Position numbers and translations under genes: made by a program. Positions 43,326-64,000 of a stretch of 64,000 bases of DNA are shown in pieces; position 1 is the stretch's first letter, and each line of letters opens with the position of its first letter. The stretch comes from Eledone cirrhosa (lineage: Eukaryota): the NCBI GenBank assembly GCA_964016885.1, contig OZ024760.1, forward strand, positions 13,950,001 through 14,014,000, given 5' to 3'. Under the pieces are notes generated by a model, which saw only the letters and a list, made by a program, of their open reading frames with translations, made no database searches and had not been told where the DNA came from.

Positions 43326-44188
<863 letters not shown>

Positions 44189-44892
44189 TTAAAAAAATTG
44201 GTTGGCTGGTTTAACCTAACGTAAAAAAATAAATAAAAAAATTCTATCCAAAAATGAGAGCTTTGTGGCAGAGAAGGAATTGAACAGGGACAAATTTTTA
44301 GGAGAATCTGGAATAAAAATATTCTAATGGTGCATTTTATATTTTATATTCTCTAAATTACAAGTGAACAAAATTAACGTTAATCTAACTATAACGTATT
44401 ACTGCTACTTTATTGGATAAACAATACTGAGTCAGCTTTTATAAGTCTTTTGAAAACCGAGAACAGAGACAATACCAACCATGTGAATTCAACAGATTTT
44501 TCCAGATAAATCTTAAAAAACAATTTTTACCCCCCCCCCCCCACATAATCTCATCAACACACATATTATACATATATATACATATATATCTTTCATTTTC
44601 TCCCTTAATCACTAGCAAATACCAACTCCTCCAGTTCTAAAAATAGAAAATTCTTCCAGAAAGATAGACAGAGAAAAATGAGAGAAGAGAGGAACCCAGT
44701 ATTTGACTGGTACTTTTATTCAGAAAAAGATAATTGCGAGAAAACTATAGATAGGAAGAATTCACCCCAGCATTTCACTGGTACTTTTTTTTATCCAACG
44801 GAAGGAAGAAAGGCAAAGTTGACCTTGGCAGGATTTAAACTCAGAGAGCATAGAAATAAAAACGAATACTCCAAGGTATTCGAATAACTGCA

Positions 44893-44933
<41 letters not shown>

Positions 44934-45199
44934 CAATTGTATATATATGTGTGTGTGTATATACAACAATATGATGAAATTAATTAAATCGAAAATGTTA
45001 CCCCGATTAAAATACAAAAACATAACTATAAAAGCTTTTTTTTTTAAAGAAATTAATTGAATTGAATTTTTTTTAAAGAAATAAATGAAATTGAACTTTT
45101 TTTTTAAAGAAATAAGTTAAATTGAATTCTTTTTTTTTAAAGAAATATAAATTAAATTTTTTTTTTTTTTTAAATAAATTAAATATAAATCTGACTGAC

Positions 45200-45346
45200 C
45201 TGTGGGACTTTTCTTCTCAGTCCCAGGAGTGAACGCTGTGGTTGGTTTTCGGCGTATCTCTGAGCAGCCCTAAAAAAGGGCTTAACGCATACCCACGTTG
45301 AAAGGACGCATGAGAATACTGTGTAGTCATCTTTCAAAATCAGTGG
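45200..45346 (-). CDS. candidate internal exon (147 nt, phase 0/0) of an unidentified gene
   Basis: Acceptor ttttcatatttttcatttcag|CCA and donor CAG|gtcagt. Open frame PLILKDDYTVFSCVLSTWVCVKPFFRAAQRYAENQPQRSLLGLRRKVPQ in GC-elevated, apparently non-repeat sequence. Protein not recognised. Confidence 0.45.
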
Positions 45347-45621
45347 CTGAAATGAAAAATATGAAAAACGGGACTTGTATTTATAAGGAAAACAAAGTGA
45401 CAGTAACTCACACATACTCACTCACGCACACACACACACACATGTATCTATGTATGTATGTATGTATGTGGTTTTGCCGCCAAAAGATTAGCAAAATTTG
45501 TGAGTGTGTATGTGTGTATGTGTGTAACAACAACAACAACAACAACCGAACAATAGAAACAAATAATAAAACAAAATTTATTATTCTATGAAGAAATTTA
45601 ATATTTTGATCAAACAATGTG

Positions 45622-45672
<51 letters not shown>

Positions 45673-45762
45673 AAGATGTATGACCCCGACGGCAGAGCTC
45701 AAGCCGTTTCGACGGCTATCTCTGGTGCATTATGGTCCATCTGGTTCCTTAACACAACTCCG

Positions 45763-45838
<76 letters not shown>

Positions 45839-46113
45839 AGAAGTTGTATTTAATTTGTTGGAAGTCCGACAAACAAATGTTTATAACTGATTTAGAGCAC
45901 TCAACAGTTTACTGGAGTAAATATTTCGTGATATTAAATAAATGGAAACTATATTTATAAAACCATATTTATTTTATTATATATATTTCAAGGCCAACCA
46001 AGACAAGCTTGGTGCACTTTCATCAAATAAAATACAAAAGTTTATTTTGCTTTCCAACCGATAAGATTTGCCTTTCATGGATACGTCTTTATTGATATAT
46101 ATATATCTATATA

Positions 46114-46145
<32 letters not shown>

Positions 46146-46235
46146 GAAAAATATATTAAAGGCGGTACCCCAGCATGACCTCAGCAAAATGGCTGGGACA
46201 AGTAAAAGAGTAAAACAATATACATATATATAATA

Positions 46236-47010
46236 CTAGCAGTGGTACCCGGCGTTGCACGGGATAAGTTATTTTGACCTAATCGTAGAAAAACTGCATG
46301 CCTGGACAATATGTAAAGAAAATAAACCGAATGCTCTGATGCAATTAGTATTAGGTATGCTTTTCCTTCCACGTGAAGAAAATCGGCTTAATAAAGTGGC
46401 AGGAGTCAGCAGGACAGATGTCACCACTTATATCAGAGGGAAGTCTGCAATGCTTGAGCAAGGCATGACGTGCAATCGGACAGCATATGGAGCCTTCTCG
46501 AACCAGTCCACCGCACCTTCACAAACGTTTACCAAACAGTGGGTATAATTTAACAATTTTACAGAGGAGTGGTGCAATAAAATGGGCCTTGAGGCGTGTG
46601 CGTGTTCACTCGCCGCCCCAAACCAAAGGGTCGCCATCAGTTATTTCAAGGGCCCTTATAATGGATTTGTAAGCCGTTCACTGACACTCCAGTAACTACG
46701 GGTAACAATCAACAATTTCAAGTGGTGGCCATAAAAAGGGCCATGTGAACGTTCTCTTAATAGTAACTTTCACTGCGTTCTCTGACATTTGGAGGGTGTT
46801 ACGGTTGCTTCCACTGGTAGCCTTTACAATGAATCAATGCGTTTGCGGCCCATTTAACAGCCATACATTGACGCGCCGAGTGCGATGCAGACAGCTAGAC
46901 ATACAGACATATTATAAGGGCGCGGTGTAAAGTTTGAAAACAGTCGGTTGGGTGCTTCTCGAGGTTTAGGGATTCAAACTCACACAGACATCCTTAGTTT
47001 TATATATATA
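46236..47010 (-). mobile_element. non-autonomous Helitron
   Basis: Minus-strand 3' end cccgtgcaacgccggg hairpin + gtaccactgCTAG|T. The 5' region (atccctaaacctcgagaagcacccaaccga) and subterminal region match 6895-6925 and 8960-9131. Confidence 0.8.
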
Positions 47011-47330
47011 TATATATATATATACCATATGATACGTTCTACCTTGCAATCCACAATGACAAGAAACCTTGTAAATACAATGTCGATCATATCACACCAT
47101 CTCCACCACCACACCACACATCGTCATGTGCATACCATACACGCCTACATCCTCATCCCCCCATGTTCCCTCTATCTACCCTAACTTGCAACCCCACGTT
47201 AAATTCGATCCTGTAACTGTACTGTCGCACGCACACACGACCACCGCCACCACTAAATACATCCACATACTTCAACAATCATCATCAACACATATCACTC
47301 GATCCCAAATCGACTGTATTATATACCCCC

Positions 47331-47521
47331 CAGGGTGGGGGGTTGGCAGTCTCGGTACAGGGTCGGACGCCATGCTTTCAAACATAGTTACGTCCCTTTA
47401 CGATCTGAGTTCAAATCCCGCCTAGGTTGACTTTGCCTTTCATCCTTACGGGGGTCGATAAAATAAAGTACCAGTAATACACTGGCTATTTGCTGGCCTT
47501 GTGCCTAAAGTAGAAACAATT
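47331..47521 (+). mobile_element. monomeric SINE, unexpanded counterpart of 2406-5854
   Basis: agggtgggggttggcagtctcggtacagggtcggacgccatgc...gatctgagttcaaatcccgcc...aagtaccag. Confidence 0.85.
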
Positions 47522-48126
47522 ATATACCCCCACCCCCCGTATGCCTACCATATAACACACCGTAACCTCTGATCATGTAATCATCTTGCCGAACATATCA
47601 CCCCAGCACCACCACCATCACCATGTCCACAACACACATGGCCGTACGTCCATAAACGCTTTTCCCCCCGCGTTCCCTATCTCACCTCTTAACCGGTATT
47701 CGATCCGGTATATATATTTTTGTCCCTCACAACTCCATCCACCACCACCACCACAAAACACAACTCCATACTTCACCAACACCGACAAAACATACCTCCA
47801 ACCAACAATAGTGTGTGTATCTGTGTGCAAGTATTTTACTCATACGGGCGTTTTAAGTGTGCGTGCGTGTACGCAAATTTATCTGTATGTGTGTGTGTGT
47901 GTGTGTATGTGAACACATGTATATACATATGTCTATGTGTGTGTATATATATATATATCTGTATATATATATATGTGTATGCATATGTGTATGTGTGTGT
48001 ATATATGTATGTGTGTGTATGTGTACGTCTACATATATGTATATGGGTAAATCTGACTATGTGTAGGTGAGCTCATATATGTGCATGTATGTATATATGT
48101 GCGTGTATGTGTGTGTTGTCGGTACA

Positions 48127-48213
<87 letters not shown>

Positions 48214-49367
48214 GTGTGTGAGTATACGTGTGTGGGAGTGTGTATGTGTATATCTTGCATACATGAGTGTGAGTCCTTCCCCCCATCTCTGTCGTTCGCC
48301 ACCCCCACCGATACTCCACCACTCTCCATATTCGTGTCCGCATGCGCGCATGCACATACATGTGTGTACATATACATATGGCTGTGTGTGAGCGTATGCC
48401 GATATGTGTGGGCAAGGATGTGCGTATGTGTCTTATGTTGTGTGTGTTTATACAACAATATATGTGCACATATATACATATATGTGTGTACGTATACGTA
48501 TATACAAGATATCTGTCAGACGAAGAGCGTCTATGTATCTATGTAAGGTCCTGACGCCACCAATACATCCACCACACCACCAAAAACGCCGCTACCATAG
48601 ACAAAGGCGCCACTACCACACGCCAGCCCGTCTACAGACAGTTCACTAACCTCACACCACAACCCATCCCACTAAATAACCTTAACCACCACCATATCTT
48701 CACATCCACACCAACATACTCGACACGCCAAGGCCAACCCACCACCACCACCACACCACAGCCCACCTCATCCACAGACCGTCACCAACATCTCACCATC
48801 ACACCCACCCCCCGTATACACTACAGGCCAGTACATCGCCTTGATCCTTCTCACCAATCAAAACATCTCATTTTGTCAAACTCTTGAAACTCTGACTTTA
48901 CCACATAGCATGTATTTCATTTTCTTATAGCATTTTAAGAGGGTCCGTCGAGCTGCCGATTATTGAGTCGGGTAGGATCGATATAGATCGAACCTTGAGC
49001 TGATCAGTGGCGAAACGCGCGTCAAATATCAATAAATGCAATGAAGGAATAATCAACACTACAACTACCATCATGAAAATTGCCAATGGTGTCAGAAAAT
49101 ATATATATCTCTGTATTGAGTATGAGGGGTGGGGGAGATTACGGCTGTCATCTCATTTTCTTTCATCAAGGCTAAGTCATGTCGGGTTTGAAAACGTAGT
49201 TCAAATGATGGCGGTGGTAGCGAGTGTTGTTGGTGTGGTGGTTTGGTGGCGGTGTGGTGTCGTAGTGGTGGCGTAGTGGTGGTGAAATATAAACCACGTG
49301 GAGTGGAACAAATATAATGAAATAAATAAATATATATATATACAAATACATACATACATACACACAT

Positions 49368-49398
<31 letters not shown>

Positions 49399-49514
49399 TA
49401 CATACACACATACACACATACATGTAGGTGATCTCTTTCTCTTAATTTCGAATATATTTTTTGACCGGTCACCTTCCTGGTGGCAAGGTTGTAAAAGAAA
49501 AGAAATTGTCATCC

Positions 49515-50625
49515 CTTGAATCGCAAGAATGTTTTGCAAATTTTGAAGGTGCCAACTATCGCAGCCACTTGTAGACTGAATTAGGGAGCTGCGCTCTTTG
49601 TCAGCAAATCCAAGTTCAGTCATACTTTGGTCCAAGCGGGTTGGTATATAACCCGTAGCTCCAATAATGATGGGTATGAAGCTAAAGGTGTATTTTGGAT
49701 ACTGGATTTGTAAACTCCTCATCAATGGTCCGTAGATGTCCTCCTCCTCCTGTATTTTTCTGACAACGTTTACATCAAGTGGGCAGCTGATCTCCACAAC
49801 ACAACACGTTTTCAATGGGTGGTCCCAAACAACAATATCAGGCCGGTTGTGCTTTAATTTGGTGGCAGTTTTTATTTTCAGGTTCCACCAGTATTCCTTA
49901 GTGCCATCTGTCTCGATATATTCTTCCTCGTTTGTTGTTAATTTTGTTTTCCAAAGTGCGTTCCAGATGGTTCTAGCTATACCATCGTGTCTCATGGGGA
50001 GGTAGTAGCGAGATGACATTCTTTCGCAGCTGGCAACAATGTCGCTTACATCTTCAATCTTTGTTTTACATAAGCCTACGTTTATTGTCAGCTGATGTCC
50101 CTCCTCTTTTGTGCAGCAGATATTTGGTAGGGAGTTCTTGTTACTGTATTGCATAGAGATATCCCTCAAGGTGTCATGTCATAAACTTGTCGGAACTCCA
50201 TGCCAGGCTTTTTGAGTGGTTTATCACCTCTATGGTCTGTGTTTTACGTCTCAAGTATACGTGCACAACTTTTTCTGTAAATTGGTCAATTTTTTCATCT
50301 TCTTTGAACAGTGAATAGGATCTTCCGATTTCTCTGGGTGAGAGATTTATATCAGGCTTTATTCCATATCTCTCCTCCAGATCAGTGGCTATCCTAATGA
50401 TATTTTTTTTTTCATGCTCATAAACCTGGGCCATAAAACTTTTCCTCTGTTGAAGATGTTGCTTCAGTGTTACTATCCGGGTGTCATATGATGTTAATAT
50501 GGATTTTAGACCCCGGCCACCTTCCTTGCATGACAAGTACAGCCTATCCACATCACCAAAGTTCCCAGTAACACTGACAAGTTTTCGAGTTCTAACATCT
50601 ATCTCTCTTAAGTATGTGATATTTA
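49515..50625 (-). mobile_element. decayed Dong/R4-like LINE, C-terminal zinc knuckle and RLE
   Basis: DRLYLSCKEGGRGLKSI; LCKTKIEDVSDIVASC..YYLPMRHDGIAR; HNRPDIVVWD..VVEISCPLD; FIPIIIGATG. Confidence 0.88.
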
Positions 50626-52275
50626 CATCTCAAATGATATATATATACAGGGTGTTTCCAAAAATGTGTAAAGTTTATTCCGAGTTCAATCACAGCTAAC
50701 AACAGTAAGTAAGGTACTCAATTCATAACAGAGTATACATATTTAATATAGTAATGACTTCTACATGACTATAACTGTTTCATTCAGGAGAATTATATAC
50801 GTGCGTGCGTGTGTTTTAATGACCATATACATACACCCCTCCCCTCAAACAGTCCTTCACAATGTCTGGTTCAGGTTTCTCATCATTGTCAAGTCACACG
50901 TTAGCACGTTTTGTATTGAGAAGTGTCCATCCAATTCACAGTACTTGGATCCGATACTGTGCTGCCGCTGTGAAAGGGGTTTCGAGCGGCCAACTGGACT
51001 GTCACTTCTCATAACAGTGCAATCTAGTCCCAGGCTGCCACGGTCGTCTTTCGTATTGAGAAGTATCCATCGCGGGGAGAGGGCCCGGCTCCGAAATTGG
51101 GGTGCCGCTGTGAGAAGGATTCGGTGCGGCAAACTGGCCTCTTCCTCCTCATAATGATATCACTGGTCACTTCGCATAGTTGTGCCATCCAACGCCATGC
51201 TCCAAAACTGGCTGTCGCTACATTGTCAGCTGTAAAATACTCAGCCGAAAAGAGTGTTTGGGACATAAAGGTTTTTAGATAAATATAAACACTTAGAGCG
51301 TGATTCTCGGGGAGATTCAGCATCAAACATTCATCTATATATACCACAGACAAATTATATATATAATATACAGTTCTACTCCTGCAGAAGACATTTCTAG
51401 ATTCAATATTTATACTCTGCTATGTATTGAGTACCTTACTGTGGTTACCCCAGATTGAACCTGGGACCAACTCACACACACATTTTTATATATACACCTA
51501 CCCATACACATGCACTCAGTTTGACATACGCACAGATACATTCTGATATAATGGCTGCGGTTAAAGATCGGAAGTAGGGTGTATGTCAGAAATTAGATTC
51601 TTTTATTGTTAACAAAGAACAAAGAACATGGCGGTAAATGTTGACTGACTCCAAAAGATAAAAAATAAATATTCGTTAATTTTTTTAAAATTATATTTCA
51701 GCTTTTCTTTGTAAATATTCATTTCCTCTCAATAATCTATATGACATATCATCACTGTTAGATACACATGTGTATTATCGGAATCAAAGAAACAACAACA
51801 CGCGTAATTGTCTGTATCTCTATAACTGTGTCTTTCTATCTAACCCCCGCCCCCTCCTCTCTCTATATATACATATATCTTTCTATCAGTATGTCTATCT
51901 TTCACCAATTCTATTTCCTTCACTTTGACTACGTAGCCCAACTGGTGGCGACAGTGTTGGTGTAGTGGTGTGTTGGTGGTGTGTGTTGGTGTGGTGGCGT
52001 GGTGGTGTAGTGGTGTGGTGGTGTTGTGGTGATGAAATATCAACCACGTGGAACACAAAATAGAATGAATACTACTACTAATACTACAAACAACAATAAT
52101 AATTGTTTCTGCTTTGGGCAAAATGCAAACATTTTGAGAGGACGCTCTACCGATTACTGCAGGCACGTTACCCATCTAATAATAATATACTGTACATAAA
52201 AATCACAACACCATACATAATGACTGCGCCCTCGTTATCGAGTATGGCCATTGCGAGATATAACATTATTGATAA

Positions 52276-53440
52276 CTAGCAGTTTAGCCCGGCGTTACTC
52301 GGGTTTGTTCATTTGCTATAAAAAGTTACATACAGGTAAACGTAGCTTGAAAGCGCATAATCTTATCAATTAAGTGCATAAAGCAGTTGAACCGGTTATT
52401 AATAGTTACGAACCAATTAGCATTTTGGACAATCAATGATGGCTTAATAATCTTCCAATAGCGAATTTAGTAGAACAAAGTTGCAAGATGGTGTCCCTGA
52501 TGCCGCTGCGTGTCAGATCTGTCCGCTATGGGTGACCCAACCAGTTTTCCAGACGGCATAACTCAAACATCTATAGCACTTCATAGTAGACGATATTGCG
52601 TGTCATCTCTTGAGGAGTGTAAGCAAAAAGTCCATTCCTGCTCCATACGCGGAAACTGGCAACAAAGTTGGCCATGGGAGAAGCATGGCTCCCCCAAATG
52701 GATGACCGCCACCAACAATGTTTGCCCTTGTGACTTGTTAATGGACTTGGAAAAAAAAAAAAAAATGGTCTCACCGGGAATTGGGATCGCCGGAAATCGA
52801 ACGGGATATCTGACGCCGAGGGGCAAAGGTTCATCCTTGGAATGAAAACATTCTCCCCTCTCCAGCACCCCGTTACAATGGTGGCCTCAATCAAGTGCAG
52901 CGTCAGTGACTTGACGACCATGCGAGTACCGTTGCACTGCTTTGGTGGACGCAAGTTCCTTATTAGCATAATGGGACAGCCAACCTTAAGCTTAAGAATA
53001 AGAGGTGGGAGCCCTGGGGAATTTAATAACTCAACCGGATAATTAACGATATCGTCGGGGTCTGACGCCAGGTCGATAGATTTGAAGATGTCTTCTTTAC
53101 CGGGAATCTTCTCAATCAGCTGCTCGTTAATAAAATTAACCGTGGTATTTTTCCGAGCAAGGATGGCTCTTTCGCTGAGCTAATCGAGGTTTTTAAAGTT
53201 AGATGAGACATTAGAAAAAACTGCTTCCAAAAGGTCAGAAGGGCTGCTCACAATGTTGCACAGGGAGTCGATTGCTATTCCGCCTTTGTCATCCGCAGGG
53301 ACCTTGCCCTCACAAAGTGCTAAAATATTCTGACCAAATGCTGCAGACATGTCACCATGCAAATGAGCACGCATATTTGTGCTCAAGTACAAACTCTTCA
53401 CCTGGAGCCACAACATGGACGACTTAAGGCAGGCAGGCAC
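52276..53440 (-). mobile_element. Helitron remnant: PIF1-like helicase C-terminus and 3' end
   Basis: LKSSMLW..LSTNMR; MLIRNL...CNGTRMVV..LIEATI..G..VFIPRM..QFPVR; SINKSQGQTL; FSHGQL. Terminal cccgagtaacgccggg hairpin and CTAG at 52276. Confidence 0.9.
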
Positions 53441-53444
53441 GCAC

Positions 53445-54340
53445 TTCTGCTCTTGTCAAGGTGAACGGCTACCTCTCGGAGCCGTTCGAAATCGCGCGGT
53501 CCATCCGACAAGGGTGCCCTCTCTCCTCCCTTCTGTATGTAATGACTAGAGCCACTGCTGCAGAAGTTGGAGTTGTTAATGCCGTCGTCGGGCGGAGGTG
53601 GCGAACACATCTACTACCGCCTGACCGTCGTGCCTTGCCCAAGGGAAACGCTCTCCAAAATGGAGCGCACACTCTTCCAATTCCTTTGGAAGAAGCGGGC
53701 TCCTATGGTGAGGAGATCCATCTGCTGTCAACACCCTTCGAAAGGAGGGCTGAGATGCCGTGGCTGGTGATGCGTAAACACGCATTAAGGCTACGGCACC
53801 TCCAGGTATTCATCACCGGTCAACCGGTGTGGGCCCCGTTTGTGAGGCGAGCCTTTCCCAGACTCGTCTCGCTCACCGAGCTGCAATCCTGGGTCAAGCA
53901 AAGACCGAGAAAATTGGGCGCCTGGCACACCGAGTGTGCCCAGGCGCTCACGGCTCTCTGGCAGGCGGACCCGGCTGTCAGTGGAGAATCCAACTCGTCA
54001 TTCTATAGAGGGCTGGTGGTTAGCAGGTGCGGCAACACCCTCGGAGAAGCCCTAGGCATGGAGGAAAACGAACTGGCCAACCTGTTCGGTAGGACATTCA
54101 GCCCGGGACCTATGGATAACTTCCAGAGGTCCCTGGCCTGGCAGTGCCACCGAGGGGCTCTGCCCGTTCGAGAAAGGCTCTACAGACACGGGCGCCCTGG
54201 TAGAGACCCCTCGAAAAAGATCTGTCCCAGATGCGGGTGCGACGAGGAAACAGTTGCACACGCATTGTACAGTGCTCGCGCATTGCCTATCTGTGGGGCT
54301 ATGTCGAACGACTGCTGTCACGGGTGGGACCGATCCGTTT
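53445..54340 (+). mobile_element. L1/Tx1-like LINE fragment (RT and C-terminal zinc-binding region)
   Basis: VNGYLSEPFEIARSIRQGCPLS.LLYV; frameshifted FQFLWKK..VRRSICCQHPSKGGL; CPRCGCDEETVAHAL. Confidence 0.85.
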
Positions 54341-54356
54341 GACCACCGGGTTCAGC

Positions 54357-54733
54357 TTCGCTAAGGTGAAAAGAATACTAACTAGAGACAATAGGGTTTG
54401 CCAGACTCAATTTAAGAATAAATCAAGAAAAGAAATACAAACCGGAATTGTGGTAAGTACCAATCACCCAGACACCTTTGGTAATGCTGTTTCGCAAAAT
54501 TAATTGTGAAGAGGAATACCAATTCTTGCTCATCAGTGGATGAAGAATTATTATCATGGACATTTCTAAGTATATTAAAAAACTGAATAGTGTGCGTATA
54601 TATAACGCACATGGTATCTGAACTTAGCGTGTCTCACAAACTCCCACCACTAAAGATAGCAGCCAAGTTTGTATTTATTTTATTGATTTATTCTTAAATT
54701 GTCTATAGTTAGTATTATTTTCACCTTAGCGAA
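54357..54733. mobile_element. Penelope-like remnant with inverted termini enclosing a hammerhead
   Basis: ttcgctaaggtgaaaagaatactaacta...aagaataaatcaa..aaatacaaac (54357-54442) is inverted at 54667-54733. Confidence 0.65.
54465..54542 (-). ncRNA. type I hammerhead ribozyme, intact core
   Basis: catcca CTGATGA gcaagaattg..caattaattttgc GAAA ca..tg TC tgggtg. Stem I catcca/tgggtg, stem II gcaag/tttgc, short stem III, GUC triplet. Confidence 0.8.
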
Positions 54734-56259
54734 TCTCATGCCTTACTATTTGAACACATGTATATATCTGTGTTCGTTTTTCTTTTATATTCAATTATGA
54801 TATATGTATATATATATATATTTATTAAAATAACAGATTAAAGTTTAAGCAAAGAATCGTTGCTTTCACCCTTAACGGGATCTTCTGAAACTCACATACA
54901 TACATACATACATACATACATACATACGTATATATATATATATATATGCATATCTGCGCATGCGCGTATGTGTGTGAATGTGGCGAAGATTAACGTCATT
55001 GCTGACGTCATGGATCATAATGTCGTTATGCAGACAGCCAGACATACAAACATATTATAAGGGCACGATGGAGATCGATAACTGGTGCCTAACACCTCTT
55101 TAAAAACAGAAAATTGAAAAATAAAAGCTGCAGTTAATATCTTTAGACCACAAGGAATATATAAATGCAAGTTTGAAGCCAATCAGAGTAGAAATGTGGA
55201 TTTGTATAGACTTTGCAAAAATGAGGAGACACACACAGTTTTATATATATAGATGATATGAGTGTGCGGCGTTGTATCTATATCTTTCTAATTATGTCAC
55301 TGAAAACATTGCCTTTCTTTTCATATTTTAGAAATGACACACTGTTCAATTATATGACCTTATAGAAGTGTCTAGAAGAGAGAGAGAGAGAGATTAAGTA
55401 TACCTTATGGTTTGGCACCACTGGGTCGGGCCTCTTTTCGTGACAGGGTCTCCTTAGTTCCAGGGAAGTATTTCTCAAAACCACCTGGTACATTGCTGTT
55501 GCGTAGCAGAGCCCAGCCCTTCATTAGGGACAACAACGGCCGTGGTGAAGCAGTTACATATTTAGAGGTAACGTAGGAATGACGATATATCTGAAATAGA
55601 GATTTTAGGGGTTATAAAGAGCCAGGGTTAAAGGTGGGGTAGATATGATATATCTGAATATATAGAATGGTGGTGTTGGTGATGTAGTGTGATGGTGGTA
55701 GTGTAGTATGGCAGTGTTATAGTGCCTGGTAGTGCTGTAGTGTGTGGTAGTGTTCTAATGTAGGTTCAGTATGTGATGGTGGGGCTTCAATGGTTAGTGT
55801 GCTGCACTCATAAACATAACATCAAACCCTAGGTCTGGCAGCACATTGTATTAATAAGCCAGTTGCTTCATTTCAAGTTTTTCGGGATAGAACTGGAGTC
55901 TATCATTACAACAACCGGGAAACCTCCTATGTGAGGACACCCTTGTCCATCTACCTATCTATATACATAGATCCACACACATAAATGTTTATGGATCTGT
56001 ATTTTTGTGTATGAAAAAAATGGAAAAAATTAAAATCTCAAGTTAGGCTACTCTATAATTTAACTATTTGGTTCTCTTTGTTGGGTGTGGGTGTGTTTTA
56101 TTTAGAAAGTTCAGACAGACAGCCATACAGATACATGATATGAGGGCGACGCGTCGTATCAATGTATCTAATTATTTGTCACTTCAAAGCTTGCTTTTCT
56201 TTTAACATTAAGTGTATGCGAGAGAGAGAAAGAAAGAAAGAGAAAGAGAGAAAGCATAC

Positions 56260-56580
56260 CTTTTGGTTTGGCACCACTGGGTCGGGCCTCTTTTCGGGGT
56301 GGGGGTCTTCTTAGTTCCAGGGAAGTATTTCTCAGTGTCCGAATTGTCCTCACATTCAGAGTGCCCATAAGCCTTGACAACCTTAGTGCTGTTAAATCGA
56401 CTACATGGTTCTTTTATTATTTCACCCATAAATGGGGCCCTAACAGGTAACACTGCTCTGGGCCAGAGCAGACCTGGGAGTTATGACAACTAAGGGGTAA
56501 CTCCACATTCCCCACAGCTCATGAACTCCCGAAATGGAGCCTTGTCACTGGATGTAGTTTAATGTCATACCCAAGACAAT
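56260..56580 (+). mobile_element. SINE-like dispersed repeat (partial copy at 55400-55478)
   Basis: ggtttggcaccactgggtcgggcctcttttcg..cttagttccagggaagtatttctca is duplicated. The 3' part ctctgggccagagcagacctgggag...actggatgtagtttaatgtcatacccaagac resembles a cephalopod SINE tail. Confidence 0.5.
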
Positions 56581-56591
56581 GTGTGTGTGTC

Positions 56592-56625
<34 letters not shown>

Positions 56626-56782
56626 AGATAGATATACACGGGTGTGTATGATTATGTATAGAAGATTATATTAATAAAAGGAATTCCAACTTTGATTTAC
56701 TCGTTTTATTTACAATCCTTTAAAATTTATAATAGTATTAGAATGAAATAGTATGGTAGAATATTAAATGTTAAGTGTTAAT

Positions 56783-56821
56783 TGAACAAGTACTTTCATG
56801 CTTTCGCAATCTTCAGGTTCA
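56783..56821 (-). ncRNA. minimal type I hammerhead (Penelope type)
   Basis: tgaac CTGAAGA t-tgc-gaaa-gca-t GAA A-gtac-T T gttca. Perfect 5-bp stem I, GAAA-capped stem II, palindromic AGUACU in place of stem III. Confidence 0.75.
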
Positions 56822-56995
56822 TAATGTGTGGTGACAGTCAAGTTTGCAATTTTCAACCGTAATGAGATGGGTAAATTTTGCCACTGTGAAAAGTGGCTCC
56901 AGAATGCTAAATCTTGAAAACTGTATTTCGACCAATCGGTGTGTAGTTTCACTGGATTACTAAAGCTGATTGGTTTAGGCGTCACAGTTGGTTGA

Positions 56996-57033
<38 letters not shown>

Positions 57034-57058
57034 GTTTGACAGATTTAACCTGAAGCAT

Positions 57059-57381
57059 ACGGAAAATACAGGATAAAGAGTAAAATGTACAGATCGTTTC
57101 AATAACTATTTCATCTCCCAGACAGATTAGAGATTTAATCTGTTTCGCCCTGAGAATTGTGTTTGTAACAGATAATCCGTAGGCGTCATCAGCGAGAGAT
57201 AAGATAAAATGTGACAAACACCTAAAACTAAAAGCTACACGAATGAATATTTCACCTCGTGCGAGCAAACGGAAAATACAGGATAGAGTAAAATGTACAC
57301 ATCGTTTCAATAACTATTTCATCTCCCGGACAGATTAGAGATTTAATCTGTTTCGCCCTGAGAATTGTGTTTGTAACAGAT
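57059..57381 (-). mobile_element. partial tandem dimer (~208-nt period) carrying hammerheads; candidate retrozyme or Penelope pseudo-LTR
   Basis: 57059-57173 is repeated at 57269-57381, and both copies contain the hammerhead 3' half. Confidence 0.7.
57115..57198 (-). ncRNA. type I hammerhead ribozyme, intact core
   Basis: ctctcg CTGATGA c gcct...gggc GAAA cagatta-aatctc-taatctg TC tgggag. All three stems form; GUC triplet. Confidence 0.85.
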
Positions 57382-57799
57382 CAGGAGACTGACTATTGTG
57401 CGTATATAAATTAACGCACATGGCATAAATACATACATCTAATTATATGTCAGTTAAAACCTTGCCTTTCTTTTCACATTTTACAGACAGCCACAATGCT
57501 GAATTATATGATCTTATGTCAGTGTATGGGAGAGAGAGAGGGGGGGGGGGAGCAAGCCAGGGTTTAGTCCCACATTTAAGATCATAGGTAACATTTATCA
57601 TATAAGAAGCTTCAAGAAAGTCATTAAAATGCCAGTCTCTGAAAATGTGAATATTGTCCTGTGCTACTGTTTCCTTGTGGGAATGATGGGTTTCGGGTTG
57701 GTTTGAAAAGGATTGACAACAACCACACACTCACACCCACTGGTTATCGGTTTCAGGTTAGGCAAGGTGACTAATGTTGTGAAGAGCAGGTGGCTGATG

Positions 57800-59690
57800 C
57801 AGCAATATACTGTAGATGCCCAGGGAAAAATACAATGTTGTCACCTCAAAATGGCCGTAACAATCGAACCGTGATGCGAGCTGAAAAGTATGAGGGTTTC
57901 TATGAGGCTGAAGGAGATTCAGTAAATGAAGGCCGGAGAATTGTTCTTCCACCTTCAATCTATGGTTCCCAATCGCTTCTACAGTGAGTGCTTTCAGAAT
58001 TCGATGACTGTGGTTCGACATGGTAAAGTCGTCTTATTTCATCACGGTAACAACTAACTCTAACTGGGATGAAATAAAAAATAATTTGCACCCTAGTCAA
58101 GAACCTAGAGACCGCCCTGATATTTGTGCAAGATTCTTCAACATCAAGTATGACAGCCTCATGGGTGACATACTGAAAAAGAAAATGTCCTAGGAAAAGT
58201 TGTTGCTCGTTCTGCTACAATAGAGTGGCAGAAACGAGGCCCCACTCATGCTCATATTCTGCAGATAATGGCTGAAGATAGTAAGCACAAAACTGCTGAT
58301 GACATTGATCAGGTAGTGTACTGTGAGATTCCAATTCTAGAGAAGATCATCCCCATCTTGCAACATTCATGGCCCATGTGGACAAGTTAATATGATGTGC
58401 TCATGAAAGGAAGGGCTAGGACAACAATAACAATGCTCAAACAGTTATCCCAAGGCAAACCGCATTTGTTGCCAAAAGTTCCTTTTCAAAGTATAGAAGA
58501 AGGGGTAGATAGCATGGTCAATTGTGAGGTTGTCTACAGTGTCAAGGCTGTTAACTAATTAAAGTACATCACAAAAGGATCAGACAAAATCACTTTCACT
58601 ATTAACGATGATCGAGGAAATTGTGTCCATGCTCGAAATGAAATTGAGACCTATATCAATGCATGGTACATCTCAGCCAGTGAAGCATTCTGGAAAGTTG
58701 CCTTGCCATTTACCTGGGGAACAAATGGTCGTGTTTGAGCAAGAGCAGGAAGAAAGTTCTTTCTAGGGGACAGCCAATGACTAAGTTCACGGAATATTTT
58801 CAACTGAATATTAGAGACCCGCTGGAACAAGATATATTGTATATTGATATTCCTAAATATTTCACTTGGACAAACAAAAAATGGCAAAGAAAAAAAGGGG
58901 ACATCTGGATGGTGATCAACAATTTATGAGTGAATCTCTTGGACGCATTCTCAGAAGACATCAATCTGAATTATATTACCTCAGAATGATCATACATCAC
59001 AAGGCTGGGTAAACTTCATATAAAGATTAACTTAGTCTGTTGGTCCTCAGCTGCCACAGATCTTCTGCACCATTTTATTGCACTGCATGCCAAATGACCC
59101 TCTGCAGTTCTGGGAGAAATGGAAGAATTGTCTTGCAGAGGATATTATGCATGAACGTCATGAGCAATTCATGTCCATGCAAACAAATAAATTAACTTCT
59201 GCCAACATTGAATCCTCAGCAACTGGTTCTTTTTCACAAAGTAATTACCTCTGTAAATGAAAATGAGGGCAGAATTTTCTGCTTGAATGCAAGTGCAGGT
59301 ACAGGTCATAAGCATTCTAATGGATTACCTCCAATGTAAAAAATAATTGCACTTGCCACTGCCATATCTGGAATAGCAGCCACTTTGCTTCACAAACAAA
59401 GAACTCTTCATTCCAAGTGCACGATTCCTCTCAATATGACTGCTGAATCAACTTGCTTCTTCACAAAGAGGGATGACACAGGTAAACTTATGCAGCAAGC
59501 TGACCTGTTAATCATTGATGAGAGAGGTATGGGACATAAGAATATCTTTCAATGCCTGACAGGAGCTTCAAAGATGTTCGAGATTGCAAAAAGCCATTTA
59601 GTGGTATCTGGTGACTAAAACCAAATTCTTCCAGTTCTACGTCATGGTGATAGACCACAAATAGTTGAAACAACCTTCAAGGGCAGACAT
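57800..59690 (+). mobile_element. decayed autonomous Helitron Rep-helicase
   Basis: GRRIVLPPS, FITVTTNSNWDEI, DRPDICARFFNIK, IEWQKRGPTHAHIL (HUH), KYITKGSD, YISASEAFWK, NASAGTG (Walker A-like), SGIAATLL..RTLHS, LLIIDE, GD*NQILPV; many frameshifts. Confidence 0.92.
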
Positions 59691-60169
59691 TTATCTACAA
59701 ACACAATTCTCACGTATGTTGCATTATCACAAAAAAGAAAATATTAAAATATTAAATGAAAGGTGTCTGTTTGCTGGCAACTGTGTCTACAAAGAAATTC
59801 TACAGTCATGTGAAACAGCTATCACTCTTTTAGTTGAAATGCATTTCAGTTTCTTTTTAAATGATAGAAAAGGGACACTACAAAAACTTATGTCTATATA
59901 TACTAGCAGAAAAACGCCCAAAGGGCAGTTCTTCAGCTAGCATATATAAATATATGTCGTCTCTCTCGGTGTATGTGTGTGTATGTGTGCATATATATAT
60001 AATGATAAAATGCGAAATACTTTCAGATGTTAAAGTCCTTTATTGATAATGCTGCGATACATATTTGTATGACGATATATATATATATATAGTTATAACA
60101 GGGGAGGGTCATATTGTTATAAATATTGCAAGAAATAATAACAGAACACACGGTTTGGTTTGGGTTGTT

Positions 60170-60445
60170 TTTCGGTGTAGGTGTTGATGAATGGCTTGTG
60201 AGGACATTGCAAGCTTTGTACAGAGGTGCTGTCAGTAAAGTGAGGGTAGGAATGGAGTTTAGTGACAAATTCCAGATACAAGTAGGAATACATCCTGTTT
60301 ACAGAAACTTATCTATGCTGATGATAAAATCAGTAGAAGAGCTTGAGAATAAATTCTGGCTATGAAAACAGAGTTGGAATTAAGAGGACTGAGAGTGAAC
60401 ATAGCTAAGACAAAATTGTTGATGAGTAGAAAAGAGGACAAAACT
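60170..60445 (+). mobile_element. RTE RT fragment
   Basis: GVDEWLVRTLQALYRGAVSKVRVGMEFSDKFQIQVGIH, a YADD-like atctatgctgatgat, and GLRVNIAKTKL. Confidence 0.8.
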
Positions 60446-60449
60446 CAGC

Positions 60450-61285
60450 GGAGAAGGAAACTATGAATAAAATGGCGAGCTGTGTGGTTGCATTTAAGTA
60501 TAATGAAAAGAAAAGTTATGGGCAAAAGAGCGCAATATCCATCGTCAGTTGTCTGCTAGGAATCATAGGCATTTCTTCGCGTTAGAGACAAGATTCCTCA
60601 ACCTAGGGCGAACAATAACTAAAATAAGTTATTGGAATAAAAAAAGGGGGAGAGAGAAAAATGAATACACACATGAAGGGTGAAGAAACGAAAAGAGGAA
60701 AAATCAAGTCAACAACTCATTTTGAACATAAGTTCTGGTGGGTTTAACGAGAAAAAAAAATACATGTCTTCACTGTAGCAGTGTGAGTGAGAGAAGAGAC
60801 TGCTTTAGAAGTGGCAGGTTAGCCGAGAGAAGGTGACTAGCAGAAGAGGGAGAAGGGGGAGAGAGAGCATAGCAACAAGGGGATAGAAGAGAGATGGGTC
60901 ACAACCGAGAAGAAAACTATGTGAATAAAATGGCAAGCTGTGTGGTTGCATTGAAATATAATCAAAATAAAAGTTACGGGCAAAAGAGGGCAATATCCAT
61001 CGTCAGTTGTCTGCTAGGAATCATAGGCATTTCTTCGCGTTAGAGACAAGATGCCTCAACCTAGGGCGAACAATAACTAAAATAAGTTATTGGGATAAAA
61101 AAGAGGGGAGAGAGAGAGAAAAATATAAACAGACACAAAGGCTGAAGCAACAAAAAGAAAGGAAAAAAAAAAAAAAAAAAAAAATCGAGTGAACAAATTG
61201 ATTTCGAACACAAGTTCTGGCGGGTTTGATAAGAAAAAAAAGACACATTCACTGTAGAAGTGTGAGCAAGAGAAGAGACAGTTAC
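60450..61285. repeat. direct tandem duplication, ~458-bp period
   Basis: gcaatatccatcgtcagttgtctgctaggaatcatagg at 60532 and 60990, with collinear flanks. Confidence 0.9.
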
Positions 61286-61438
61286 GGACGAGGAAGGAAG
61301 TGAGCTAGCAGATTAGTGAGTGAAAATAAGAGAAAGCCAGAAACATACATATATATATATATATATATACATACATATAAATATATGCATATATACACAT
61401 ATATACATACATATAAATATATACATATATACATATAT

Positions 61439-62040
61439 ATGGTGGTTGCCAACTCTTTTTCGAGTACGGCCCCTACTTTATATCCATGTAGGAGAACCCC
61501 TACCGATGGGCTGAACGAGTGTGACGTTTTAGTCCAGCCAGTGACTTGAAAACTCTGGTACAAACACTACACTTGTGACAATTATTGACAGTGCTGGGCC
61601 CATGGTTCCATGTGACGACAAGTGCAGAGAGATCTCCAGATATAAAGCAATGCCTGTGCTGTGAAGCTTTTATAGTGAGCAAAGGCACTGCACAAAGCCA
61701 GTCCCACTCTCTTAACCAAGATGATATTTACCAAAAAGAAAAACAAGTCAACATCATTGGATACCATCAGGGTTGCAGGTGTTATATCAGAGTTTTCCTT
61801 CTCCTAGAATTCTGCCTTGACACAGGCTAAGGGGTCATCTCTCCCGGTGATTTTGGATGGCCATTGACTCTTAAGAGCTCCTTTGCCCTTTGACAGGTTT
61901 TGTTTTTAGTCCTGCAGGATGTCCAAAGTCACCCTCCTCACCAAGAAACCTTAGTGGGGTTGCCAGTTTAGTCGCCAACGACCCGACCAGGAGACAGGTT
62001 GTACTGGGATACATGTTACCAGTAGCACCAACTGGTGACC
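61439..62040 (-). mobile_element. RTE-like LINE 3' end (inverted copy of 19480-20071)
   Basis: CHKCSVCTRVFKSLAGLKRH; paralogous ORFs in the track. Confidence 0.7.
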
Positions 62041-62086
62041 TGACATAATATATATGTATGTACATATATATCTATACACACACACA

Positions 62087-62525
62087 AGTGAGATGCGCGA
62101 TGCTGCATGGTAGTGAGACATGGACAGCAACTGCAGAGGGTATGCGATGGCTGGAGAGAAATGAAGCAAGCACGCTCCGTTGGATGTGCAATGTCAATGT
62201 GCGGGAACGACCAAGCATAAACGAGTTGAGAGAGAAACTGTGTTTAAGAGGGATAAGTTGTGGTGTGCAAGAGAGGACTGAGATGGTATGGACATGTGAT
62301 GCGCATGGAGGTTGAGCGCTGGGTAAAGAAGGGAGACGCAGTAGAGGAAGACCACGAAAAACATGGGTGGAGGTGGTGAGAGCCGACTTCAGATCGCTGA
62401 AACTCACCAAGGAGATGACGAAGGACCGTGACAAGTGAAGCGATGCTTTGCTCAAGAGGACCTGTCCCACCCTTTCAAGCAGGGAAAAGCGGACGTAAAA
62501 TGATGAACAGACGATGATAATGATG
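62087..62525 (+). mobile_element. RTE LINE 3' end
   Basis: VRCAMLHGSETW..LERNEASTLRWMCNV..ELREKL; GRRSRGRPRKTW; (GAT)n tail. Confidence 0.85.
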
Positions 62526-63014
62526 CTCTCTATATATCTATCTCTCTATCAATCTATCCAGATATCTGTGCATCAGTCTATCTATAAACACCCTCCTGCA
62601 CTTCTCACTCCGTCTCAGGATCACCGAGACATCACCAACAACCAACCCACGCTGTGGGAAACAGTCCTCCCCGGGGCACACCCTGGTACTTCACACCATC
62701 TGTCTGTCTCGCTGCCTAACTACCGAGAAATCCGGCTTCTGTGCTTGCCTAATTTGTAGGTTATTAGGCAGTTGGCAGGTTTGCGGAAGTTGGTTTTGCA
62801 AATGGTTAAAACACTTGCATCACAAAATTCAAATAGCATCACTCCTTGTTTTATCTTTCTCGTCTTTACCTAGGCCTGCATAAGTTAGTGTTACGGTTAG
62901 TGTTACTGTTAGCGTTACGGCTAGTTTTAGGGTTAATTGAGAGCAAGAAACTGCTGCTAGGTAAAGACAAGAAATTCTGCATTTACAAGCAATTTTTACA
63001 AACAGCCACAATGA

Positions 63015-63960
63015 CAGGACGGAGACATCGTTATGCTAGCAGGGGATTTCAATGGTCATGTTGGACAGCTCTACGATGGTTACACTGAGGTACATGTTGG
63101 GCACACTTACGGCTTAAGAAATGAAGCAGTGAAACTTCTTGAATTTTGCGATGCAATTGCACTAACCATCTACAACACTAACTTACACAAATCTGCCAAC
63201 CACCTAATAACCTACAAATCAGGCAAGCACATAAGCCAGATTGACTTCTTGCTAGTTAGGCAGCGGGACAGGCAGATGGTGTCAAATACAAAGGCATACC
63301 CCGGGGAAGAATGTACCCCAAGCAAGAGACTGAATGAGACATACAGGAAGGTGTGGAAAAAAGAAAGGTCTGGAAGCTAAAAGAGCTCTCACTAAAATAC
63401 AAATTTAGGAAAGCCCTTCAATATGTGTATGATGAAAAAGAAGACCATTTAGAGTCGTACAACATAGATGATAACTGGAATTTCTTATGCGATACCTTAC
63501 TGCAGGTTACTGATGAAACTTGTGGCTGGATCAGAGTTCCAACCAGACAGAGAGTGACATGGTGGTGGGACAGCACGGTAGATCGGGCCATTGGAGACTA
63601 AAGACTAGCATGGAATGCTTGCAAAATTAGTGCGAGTAGAGAAGAATATACAGCCGCTAAGAGAGAAGCTAGACGTCAGGTGTACTTAGCATGCAAGGAG
63701 GCTGCTCGACGACGTGCGCTGTTCCGTACTGCGAGGCAGTGTGTCAGTGCAAATCGGGATTAAGTCTGTCCGCAATGATGCCGCTGTACTTTGTGTCACG
63801 AATGAGTGTTGATGAGTAGAAAAGAGGACAAAACTCTATTCCGTCAGGGAAATGGCCATGTTCGATATGCAGAAACGGAACTGGCATAAATTATATAAAA
63901 CGTACACAAAAGATCGAGTGCGATAGCAGGCACGTAGTGGGATAGCAGGCAAACTAACAG
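63015..63960 (+). mobile_element. RTE LINE endonuclease and linker fragment
   Basis: AGDFNGHVG..GLRNEAVKLLEFC..NT..HLITYKSG...QIDFLL..YPGEEC; RQRVTWWWD. Confidence 0.88.
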
Positions 63961-64000
63961 CATATTTTGATTATAATAAAACAAATAATAATAGTAATAA

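What the first reader, a model, noticed from the sequence alone, without database searches (positions are those of the whole stretch)
57059..57381. Candidate retrozyme: ~208-nt monomer delimited by two hammerhead cleavage sites
Seen in sequence: on the minus strand, a complete type I hammerhead at 57115-57198 (stem I ctctcg/tgggag, CUGAUGA, stem II gcct/gggc, GAAA, 8-bp stem III, GUC). A second copy of its 3' half lies 208 nt upstream (C17 at 57329 versus 57121), and its stem I strand cgggag pairs even better with ctctcg. The upstream copy lacks its own CUGAUGA strand. Established knowledge: metazoan non-LTR retrozymes are tandem monomers of a few hundred nt carrying type I hammerheads and processed to circular RNAs, and Penelope pseudo-LTRs also carry hammerheads. 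Inference: the single CUGAUGA strand could pair with either 3' half, so a read-through transcript could be cut at both sites and release a 208-nt monomer able to circularise. This may be an undescribed cephalopod retrozyme family.
Basis: partly seen in the sequence, partly recalled or inferred. Interest (0 to 1): 0.85.

Follow-up and report, generated by a model that had tools for sequence, protein, structure and literature searches.

The report
Truncated copy of Penelope-type retrozyme family
This is a hammerhead-ribozyme sequence inside a broken copy of a roughly 465-base non-coding repeat that forms head-to-tail arrays elsewhere in the genome and is likely moved by Penelope-like retrotransposon enzymes; the 208-base spacing is a single rearrangement carried to 25 places inside a duplicated block, not the family's unit.

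Summary
In detail: a type I hammerhead at 57113-57200 (-) and a second 3' half 208 nt upstream. The 208-nt monomer is not the family unit. Its junction occurs at 25 places, once each, always in the same duplicated block, 8 of them within about 61 kb of a contig end. No 208-spaced pair of cores belongs to the family. The family unit is 457-472 nt. It forms true tandem arrays of up to 7 complete hammerheads (38 matches), mostly in a sister subfamily about 71% identical. Insertions carry Penelope-like marks: 5' truncation, inverted arms, (TA)n junctions and two fixed 3' ends 78 nt apart, one per arm in 19 of 23 two-armed insertions. No autonomous partner was found. The window copy is best read as a partial dimer missing about 260 nt. 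A double cut releasing 208 nt is energetically possible but untested; no RNA run was listed. Verdict: new member of a known kind (non-LTR retrozyme, non-autonomous Penelope derivative). The scan earlier noted similar ribozyme-free tandem elements in other genomes; none on this DNA.

The parts
57030..57381 (-). Whole insertion: 5'-truncated, internally deleted partial dimer of the ~465-nt unit
   Evidence: Maps to positions 261-381 then 172-404 of a 456-nt natural family copy (C1 copy of the same block); 25 block copies are 94.9-100% identical over 352 nt
57264..57381 (-). Upstream partial unit: loop 2 remnant, stem II 3' strand, GAAA, stem III, C17 at 57329, stem I 3' strand; no CUGAUGA
57263..57264 (-). 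Unique junction that creates the 208-nt period; about 260 nt of the family unit are absent, with a 2-nt microhomology
   Evidence: Junction pattern has 25 matches genome-wide, control 0; dispersed copies have other sequence on each side
57113..57200 (-). Complete type I hammerhead with 8-pair stem III and 30-nt loop 2; predicted cut after 57121
   Evidence: core and stems conserved at 0.87-0.98 against 0.72 for loop 3 in 90 copies
57203..57221 (-). 5' flank complementary to loop 2 (57159-57177); candidate anti-hammerhead helix
   Evidence: 78% of cells paired over 19 columns against 24-50% when slid; one A/G column opposite U (49 and 37 rows); no two-sided covariation
57000..57029 (.). (AT)15 microsatellite at the 3' end of the insertion
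56594..56997 (-). 3' non-coding end of an unrelated autonomous Penelope-like family (neighbour)
   Evidence: 84-92% identical to sequence in L170, L174, L175, L180, L185, L186; the L174, L175 and L180 ORFs hit RVT_1 and GIY-YIG
43854..64000 (.). Part of a >30-kb segmentally duplicated block that carries the element; subtelomeric in several contigs, interstitial here

Best explanation
The feature is a 5'-truncated partial dimer of a ~465-nt hammerhead-bearing non-coding repeat, lacking about 260 nt between its two units, which was likely inserted once by Penelope-like enzymes and then copied to 25 places inside a duplicated block. Family mechanism: tandem arrays (shown) would be transcribed and cut once per unit by the hammerhead, releasing 457-472-nt monomers that host ligase could circularise (inferred from other retrozymes). 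A Penelope-like RT/GIY-YIG enzyme would nick AT-rich DNA and start cDNA at one of two AT-rich points of the unit (the two 3' ends are shown; the enzyme is inferred), giving truncated tandems and inverted arms (shown). The window copy keeps one complete hammerhead, so a read-through RNA would probably be cut once. Its 208-nt period is a by-product with no sign of having spread by itself.
For: Junction at 25 places, once each, the same places as the 25 full-length hits, all sharing block flanks. No family pair of cores 185-215 nt apart: 19 matches, none with family sequence. 38 matches for two cores 445-475 nt apart, control 5. Arrays with periods 457-472 nt; at C2:364.75 Mb, 7 hammerheads and 6 monomers all aligned at 100% to one of them. 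The array unit aligns over its whole length with the window's subfamily at 71%, and that subfamily has its own 463-nt full dimer. In 43 array-subfamily loci, 59 of 74 internal alignment ends fall at monomer positions 143 (27), 221 (22) or 191 (10, read as the 221 site in a subfamily with a deletion). 19 of 23 two-armed insertions have one arm ending at each site (my count). Hammerhead core and stems are more conserved than loop 3, N7 and flanks. The genome holds RT + GIY-YIG ORFs, one open over 938 aa. Two RT start sites producing a tail are reported for a Penelope element (PMC11167929).
Against: No transcript or cleavage data. No autonomous element sharing the unit was found, so the mobilising enzyme is unidentified. 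Hammerhead pair covariation does not beat shuffles (62 of 500 reach the score), and RNAalifold on the alignment did not recover the hammerhead. Local folds of three family hammerheads (L258, L242, L245) favour inactive structures. Both 3' end sites contain TA runs like the target, whereas the published Penelope start site is not homologous to its target. The tail here is 78 nt against 30-40 nt in the papers. Whether the 260 nt were lost by a later deletion or by an RT template jump cannot be told.
Confidence: 0.8

Rival explanations
1. One reading: the window copy is a working mini-retrozyme. One CUGAUGA strand first pairs with the upstream 3' half (type II-like topology) and cuts at 57329/57328, then swaps to the downstream half and cuts at 57121/57120, releasing a 208-nt RNA that circularises.
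For: The upstream conformer is 2.3-2.4 kcal/mol above the ensemble while the nascent RNA ends at 57175-57160; after the first cut the downstream conformer is 2.7-3.5 kcal/mol above it. The 208-mer folds with the hammerhead helices formed, linear or circular. 10 of 25 block copies are identical over 352 nt.
Against: One junction only, no multimers, no independent insertions. The high identity covers kilobases of flank too, so it reflects block duplication, not selection on the element. The last ~25 nt of the insertion lie outside the 208-nt circle, so the insertion was not copied from such a circle. No promoter is known.
Confidence: 0.12
2. The unit is the pseudo-LTR of an autonomous Penelope-like element, and all short copies are its truncated 3' ends.
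For: All Penelope insertion marks are present. Penelope ORF fragments lie near many copies. At L221 a unit was duplicated together with an RT + endonuclease element.
Against: 0 of 50 GIY-YIG loci share the unit. ORF fragments near copies have no fixed distance or orientation. Units join directly head to tail with no ORF in arrays. Only 50 loci were examined, from 150 scored hits among 10,597 candidates, so a rare or diverged parent is not excluded.
Confidence: 0.07
3. The arrays are an ordinary satellite expanded by DNA slippage or unequal exchange, and the hammerhead is a dead relic.
For: No significant covariation; inactive local folds in array copies; the 2026 preprint found cleavage in only 1 of 9 predicted Xenopus dimers.
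Against: Arrays are dispersed, 5'-truncated, share two 3' ends and often have inverted arms. The core is kept across subfamilies that are 71% identical.
Confidence: 0.06

Closest known systems
Metazoan non-LTR retrozymes (Cervera & de la Pena 2020, PMC7229834; mussel units of 350-390 bp)
   Same: Non-coding, low-GC (36%) tandem units, each with a type I hammerhead, from dimers to multimers, plus many solo copies.
   Different: Unit of 457-472 nt, above the ~170-400 nt given there for invertebrates. Stable 8-pair stem III and long loop 2. Expression not shown. The window locus itself has only one complete hammerhead.
Retrozymes as non-autonomous Penelope derivatives (Li, Clavereau & Pollet 2026, bioRxiv 10.64898/2026.07.22.740005)
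   Same: Co-occurs with Penelope-like ORFs; unit length inside their 51-972 bp range; family meets their two-complete-units rule.
   Different: Their link rests on co-distribution and pLTR homology in Xenopus. Here no homologous pLTR was found and the link is insertion anatomy (two 3' ends, inverted arms).
Penelope-like element pseudo-LTRs and tails (PMC8557442, PMC11167929, PMC4209133)
   Same: 5' truncation, partial tandems, inverted 5' copies, optional tail, AT-rich or microsatellite targets, hammerhead in the repeat.
   Different: No RT/GIY-YIG ORF; tail of 78 nt rather than 30-40; a full hammerhead rather than the minimal dimer-type motif; end sites resemble the (TA)n target.

Membership tests
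Non-LTR retrozyme (family level) | Type I hammerhead in the repeat unit | tested here: met
   96 of 124 collected motifs keep all three core strings (a few motifs counted twice)
Non-LTR retrozyme (family level) | At least two consecutive tandem units with complete hammerheads | tested here: met
   38 pattern matches, arrays of up to 7; 37 in sister subfamilies, 1 closer to the window's subfamily (L245)
Non-LTR retrozyme (this locus) | At least two consecutive tandem units with complete hammerheads | tested here: not met
   One CUGAUGA strand only; the locus is a defective copy
Non-LTR retrozyme (family level) | Short, non-coding, GC below 45% | tested here: met
   457-472 nt; 36% GC for the L258 monomer; no ORF of 120 aa or more at this locus
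Non-LTR retrozyme (family level) | Self-cleavage in vitro | not testable with these tools
   needs transcription assay
Non-LTR retrozyme (family level) | Accumulates as circular RNA | not testable with these tools
   the available runs are contigs of unknown kind
Autonomous Penelope-like element (pseudo-LTR) | Repeat flanks an RT + GIY-YIG ORF at a fixed position | tested here: not met
   0 of 50 GIY-YIG loci share the unit; no fixed ORF position near family copies; sample-limited
Penelope-type mobilisation | 5' truncation, partial tandems, inverted 5' arm, tail from two 3' ends | tested here: met
   19 of 23 two-armed insertions have one arm per end site
Rfam hammerhead families | Score at gathering threshold | tested here: not met
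   0 hits

The most novel reading that the evidence does not exclude
The rearranged copy is a one-core, two-site ribozyme: a single CUGAUGA strand cuts first as a type II-like and then as a type I hammerhead, so transcripts of a 25-copy, partly subtelomeric block release a 208-nt circular RNA. That would be a new retrozyme caught at birth from a family whose insertions also record the two start sites of a Penelope-type enzyme and whose hammerhead has a conserved off-switch helix.
Probability: 0.1. Interest if true: 0.7.

Novelty: new member of a known kind. Interest (0 to 1): 0.4.

Why it matters
The window locus is a relic, but it leads to a sizeable family (1,159-1,919 first-look candidates per query) with young, near-identical arrays. 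That Penelope-like enzymes move animal retrozymes is still a hypothesis resting on co-occurrence and pLTR homology. The two fixed 3' ends, split one per arm in 19 of 23 inverted insertions, give sequence-level support and name the RNA sites to test with a purified enzyme. The conserved flank-loop 2 complementarity bears on the open question, raised in PMC7229834, of how animal retrozyme circles avoid cutting themselves. Seven literature searches listed no paper on a cephalopod retrozyme; Repbase, Dfam and paper supplements were not checked.

Tried and rejected
Rfam: no hammerhead hit. Expression: no RNA holder listed. The four runs laid on 56800-57600 are contigs of unknown kind from one study; X1-X3 hold contigs across the 208 junction, X4 lists none, and no joint points to a circle. 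This says nothing for or against expression. Autonomous partner: a Pfam accession recalled from memory was not in the library; GIY-YIG loci gave no match to the unit. L221 looked like pLTR-ORF-pLTR, but the unit sits behind a (TA)n run after the other element's own 3' end, and a 98%-identical copy of that element (L232) ends 1.2 kb from its nearest unit; rejected as parent. A 'homing SINE' idea, from an antisense SINE in the unit's linker in 15 of 18 gap regions I picked, was rejected: that SINE has 58,744 exact matches, its 30 sampled copies join at short TAAT-like sites, and none of the 30 lies within 1.5 kb of the unit. Covariation tests were not significant. 25 independent transpositions were rejected because flanks are shared. 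A pseudoknot reading of the whole 19-column flank-loop 2 helix was set aside by reasoning alone: the remaining linker looks too short to keep stem II. Species identity was not tested.

Full report
Observation. The sequence is as described. On the minus strand the core CUGAUGA starts at 57192, the two 3' halves start at 57358 and 57150, and C17 lies at 57329 and 57121. The repeat has 208-nt spacing and 98% identity over 97 nt. The 93-nt motif folds as a type I hammerhead with z = -3.47. Rfam does not detect it; the 30-nt loop 2 may be the reason, which is my inference.

The 208-nt period is a single event. A search with the 336-nt element gave 40 scored hits of 1,421 candidates; 25 cover the whole query. 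Those 25 share kilobases of flank with the window, 21 over the whole 3.3-kb locus and 4 over part of it. Four copies followed further share a block of more than 30 kb with satellites on both sides. Eight of the 25 lie within about 61 kb of a contig end, and telomeric repeats were seen at six of these ends; the window's own copy is interstitial in the assembly. The junction pattern matches exactly these 25 places, once each, control 0. A pattern for two cores 185-215 nt apart gave 19 matches, none with family sequence.

The real unit is about 465 nt. Dispersed copies continue on both sides of the window's segment. Mapped on a 456-nt natural copy, 60 loci from two searches and 50 loci from a position-ordered pattern list show partial tandems, 5' truncation, inverted arms and 3' ends joined to (TA)n (some loci overlap). 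The exact 3' half has 227 matches. The block element maps as positions 261-381 followed by 172-404 of the unit, so about 260 nt are missing between two units, at a 2-nt microhomology. Its last 25 nt lie outside the 208-nt repeat, so it was not copied from a 208-nt circle.

True arrays exist. Two cores 445-475 nt apart match 38 times, control 5. Periods are 457-472 nt; one array holds 7 hammerheads, with 6 monomers aligned at 100%. The array unit aligns end to end with the window's subfamily at 71%, and at 80% around the window's hammerhead. One full 463-nt dimer is closer to the window's subfamily. In 43 array-subfamily loci, 59 of 74 internal alignment ends fall at two AT-rich points 78 nt apart, counting position 191 as the second point in a subfamily with a local deletion. 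Of 23 two-armed insertions, 19 have one arm ending at each point; the exceptions are L272, L340, L343 and L348 (my count). This resembles the Penelope tail that arises from two RT start sites (PMC11167929, parts 1-2 of 4 read) and the tandem and inverted insertions described in PMC8557442 (passages). It differs in tail length and in that the end points resemble the target.

The hammerhead looks maintained, with caveats. In 90 aligned motifs (chosen from 124 collected, leaving out duplicates and some truncated or poorly aligned ones) 93.5% of cells pair. Covariation does not exceed shuffles (62 of 500), though the slid controls pair only 23-46%. RNAalifold did not recover the fold. Column conservation is 0.94 for the core, 0.96-0.98 for stem III, 0.72 for loop 3, 0.76 for N7 and 0.75-0.77 for flanks. 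A 5' flank is complementary to loop 2 (78% paired against 24-50% slid; one column alternates A/G opposite U). This helix dominates the local fold of the L258 array (P = 0.96) but not of the window copy (P = 0.02, where stems I and II have P = 0.95 and 0.97); two other copies fold into different inactive structures. An off-switch is a hypothesis.

No autonomous parent was found. The genome has 10,597 GIY-YIG candidates, 150 scored. Of 10 ORFs scanned, 8 hit both RVT_1 and GIY-YIG. The L171 ORF is open over 938 aa and has a CX4CX2C linker of the kind PMC8557442 ascribes to Neptune elements. None of 50 such loci shares the unit. ORF fragments near family copies have no fixed position. The sequence just downstream of the window element, 56594-56997, is the 3' end of an unrelated Penelope-like family.

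With both conformers enforced, the upstream type II-like fold is 2.3-2.4 kcal/mol above the ensemble while the nascent RNA ends at 57175-57160, and 3.9-6.9 later. After a first cut, the downstream fold is 2.7-3.5 kcal/mol above it. A sequential double cut is therefore possible. Nothing shows that the locus is transcribed.

Comparison. The family fits metazoan non-LTR retrozymes (PMC7229834: passages and sections 14 and 17) and the view that they are non-autonomous Penelope derivatives (bioRxiv 10.64898/2026.07.22.740005: parts 1-3 of 5; its supplements were not seen and cover 35 species that I could not check by name). It differs from the minimal hammerheads of Penelope pLTRs (PMC4209133, part 1 of 4) in having a stable stem III. 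The window locus fails the two-complete-units test and is a defective member. Two notes on ribozyme-free Penelope-type tandems in other genomes were seen after my reading was formed. The labels 'Nematis-like' for L221 and 'tRNA-derived SINE' are recalled, not tested.

Verdict. A real hammerhead in a rearranged relic of a probably undescribed ~465-nt retrozyme family with Penelope-type insertion marks. New member of a known kind; interest 0.4.

Noticed in passing
window 28900-64000 and neighbouring stretch L038-L039; C19:1-70000, C10, C9, C13, C6, C18, C14 ends: A block of more than 30 kb, 90-99% identical between copies, with a ~4-5-kb satellite on one side and a 3.3-3.7-kb satellite on the other, occurs at many chromosome ends and at interstitial sites, including twice on C21 in opposite orientation 184 kb apart. 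Interstitial copies may mark old ends or scaffolding joins.
   Followed up: partly
L221:2875-7503 (G000:C2:216.85 Mb): A Penelope-like element with RT and endonuclease in two frames (Nematis-like, label recalled) followed by (TA)n and a family unit; a 100%-identical inverted 5' duplicate covers the element's 3' end and the unit, so the composite seems to have moved as one.
   Followed up: partly
L028, L091, L092, L099, L103, L104, L195, L202, L205, L210, L219, L223, L225, L231, L232: The AT-rich linker of the unit is an insertion hot spot for a very abundant SINE (58,744 exact matches), always antisense, at one position, with variable truncation.
   Followed up: yes
L171 3' region (G000:C1:145.87 Mb): An open 938-aa RT + GIY-YIG ORF with ~1-kb direct repeats; about 1.4 kb downstream, by eye, a minimal hammerhead with the U3-A8 core variant and a palindromic helix III as described in PMC4209133.
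   Followed up: no
window 56594-56997: 3' end of another Penelope-like family directly downstream of the element, separated by (AT)15.
   Followed up: partly
window 49201-50629 (-), 52571-53179 (-), 53428-54342 (+), 63015-63380 (+): Frames that look by eye like fragments of non-LTR retrotransposon RT or endonuclease domains and a PIF1-type helicase; not scanned against any library.
   Followed up: no
G000:C23:12846016-12847192 (L282-L285): A ~55-nt satellite whose unit contains a CUGAUGA string; not part of this family and not checked for a ribozyme.
   Followed up: no
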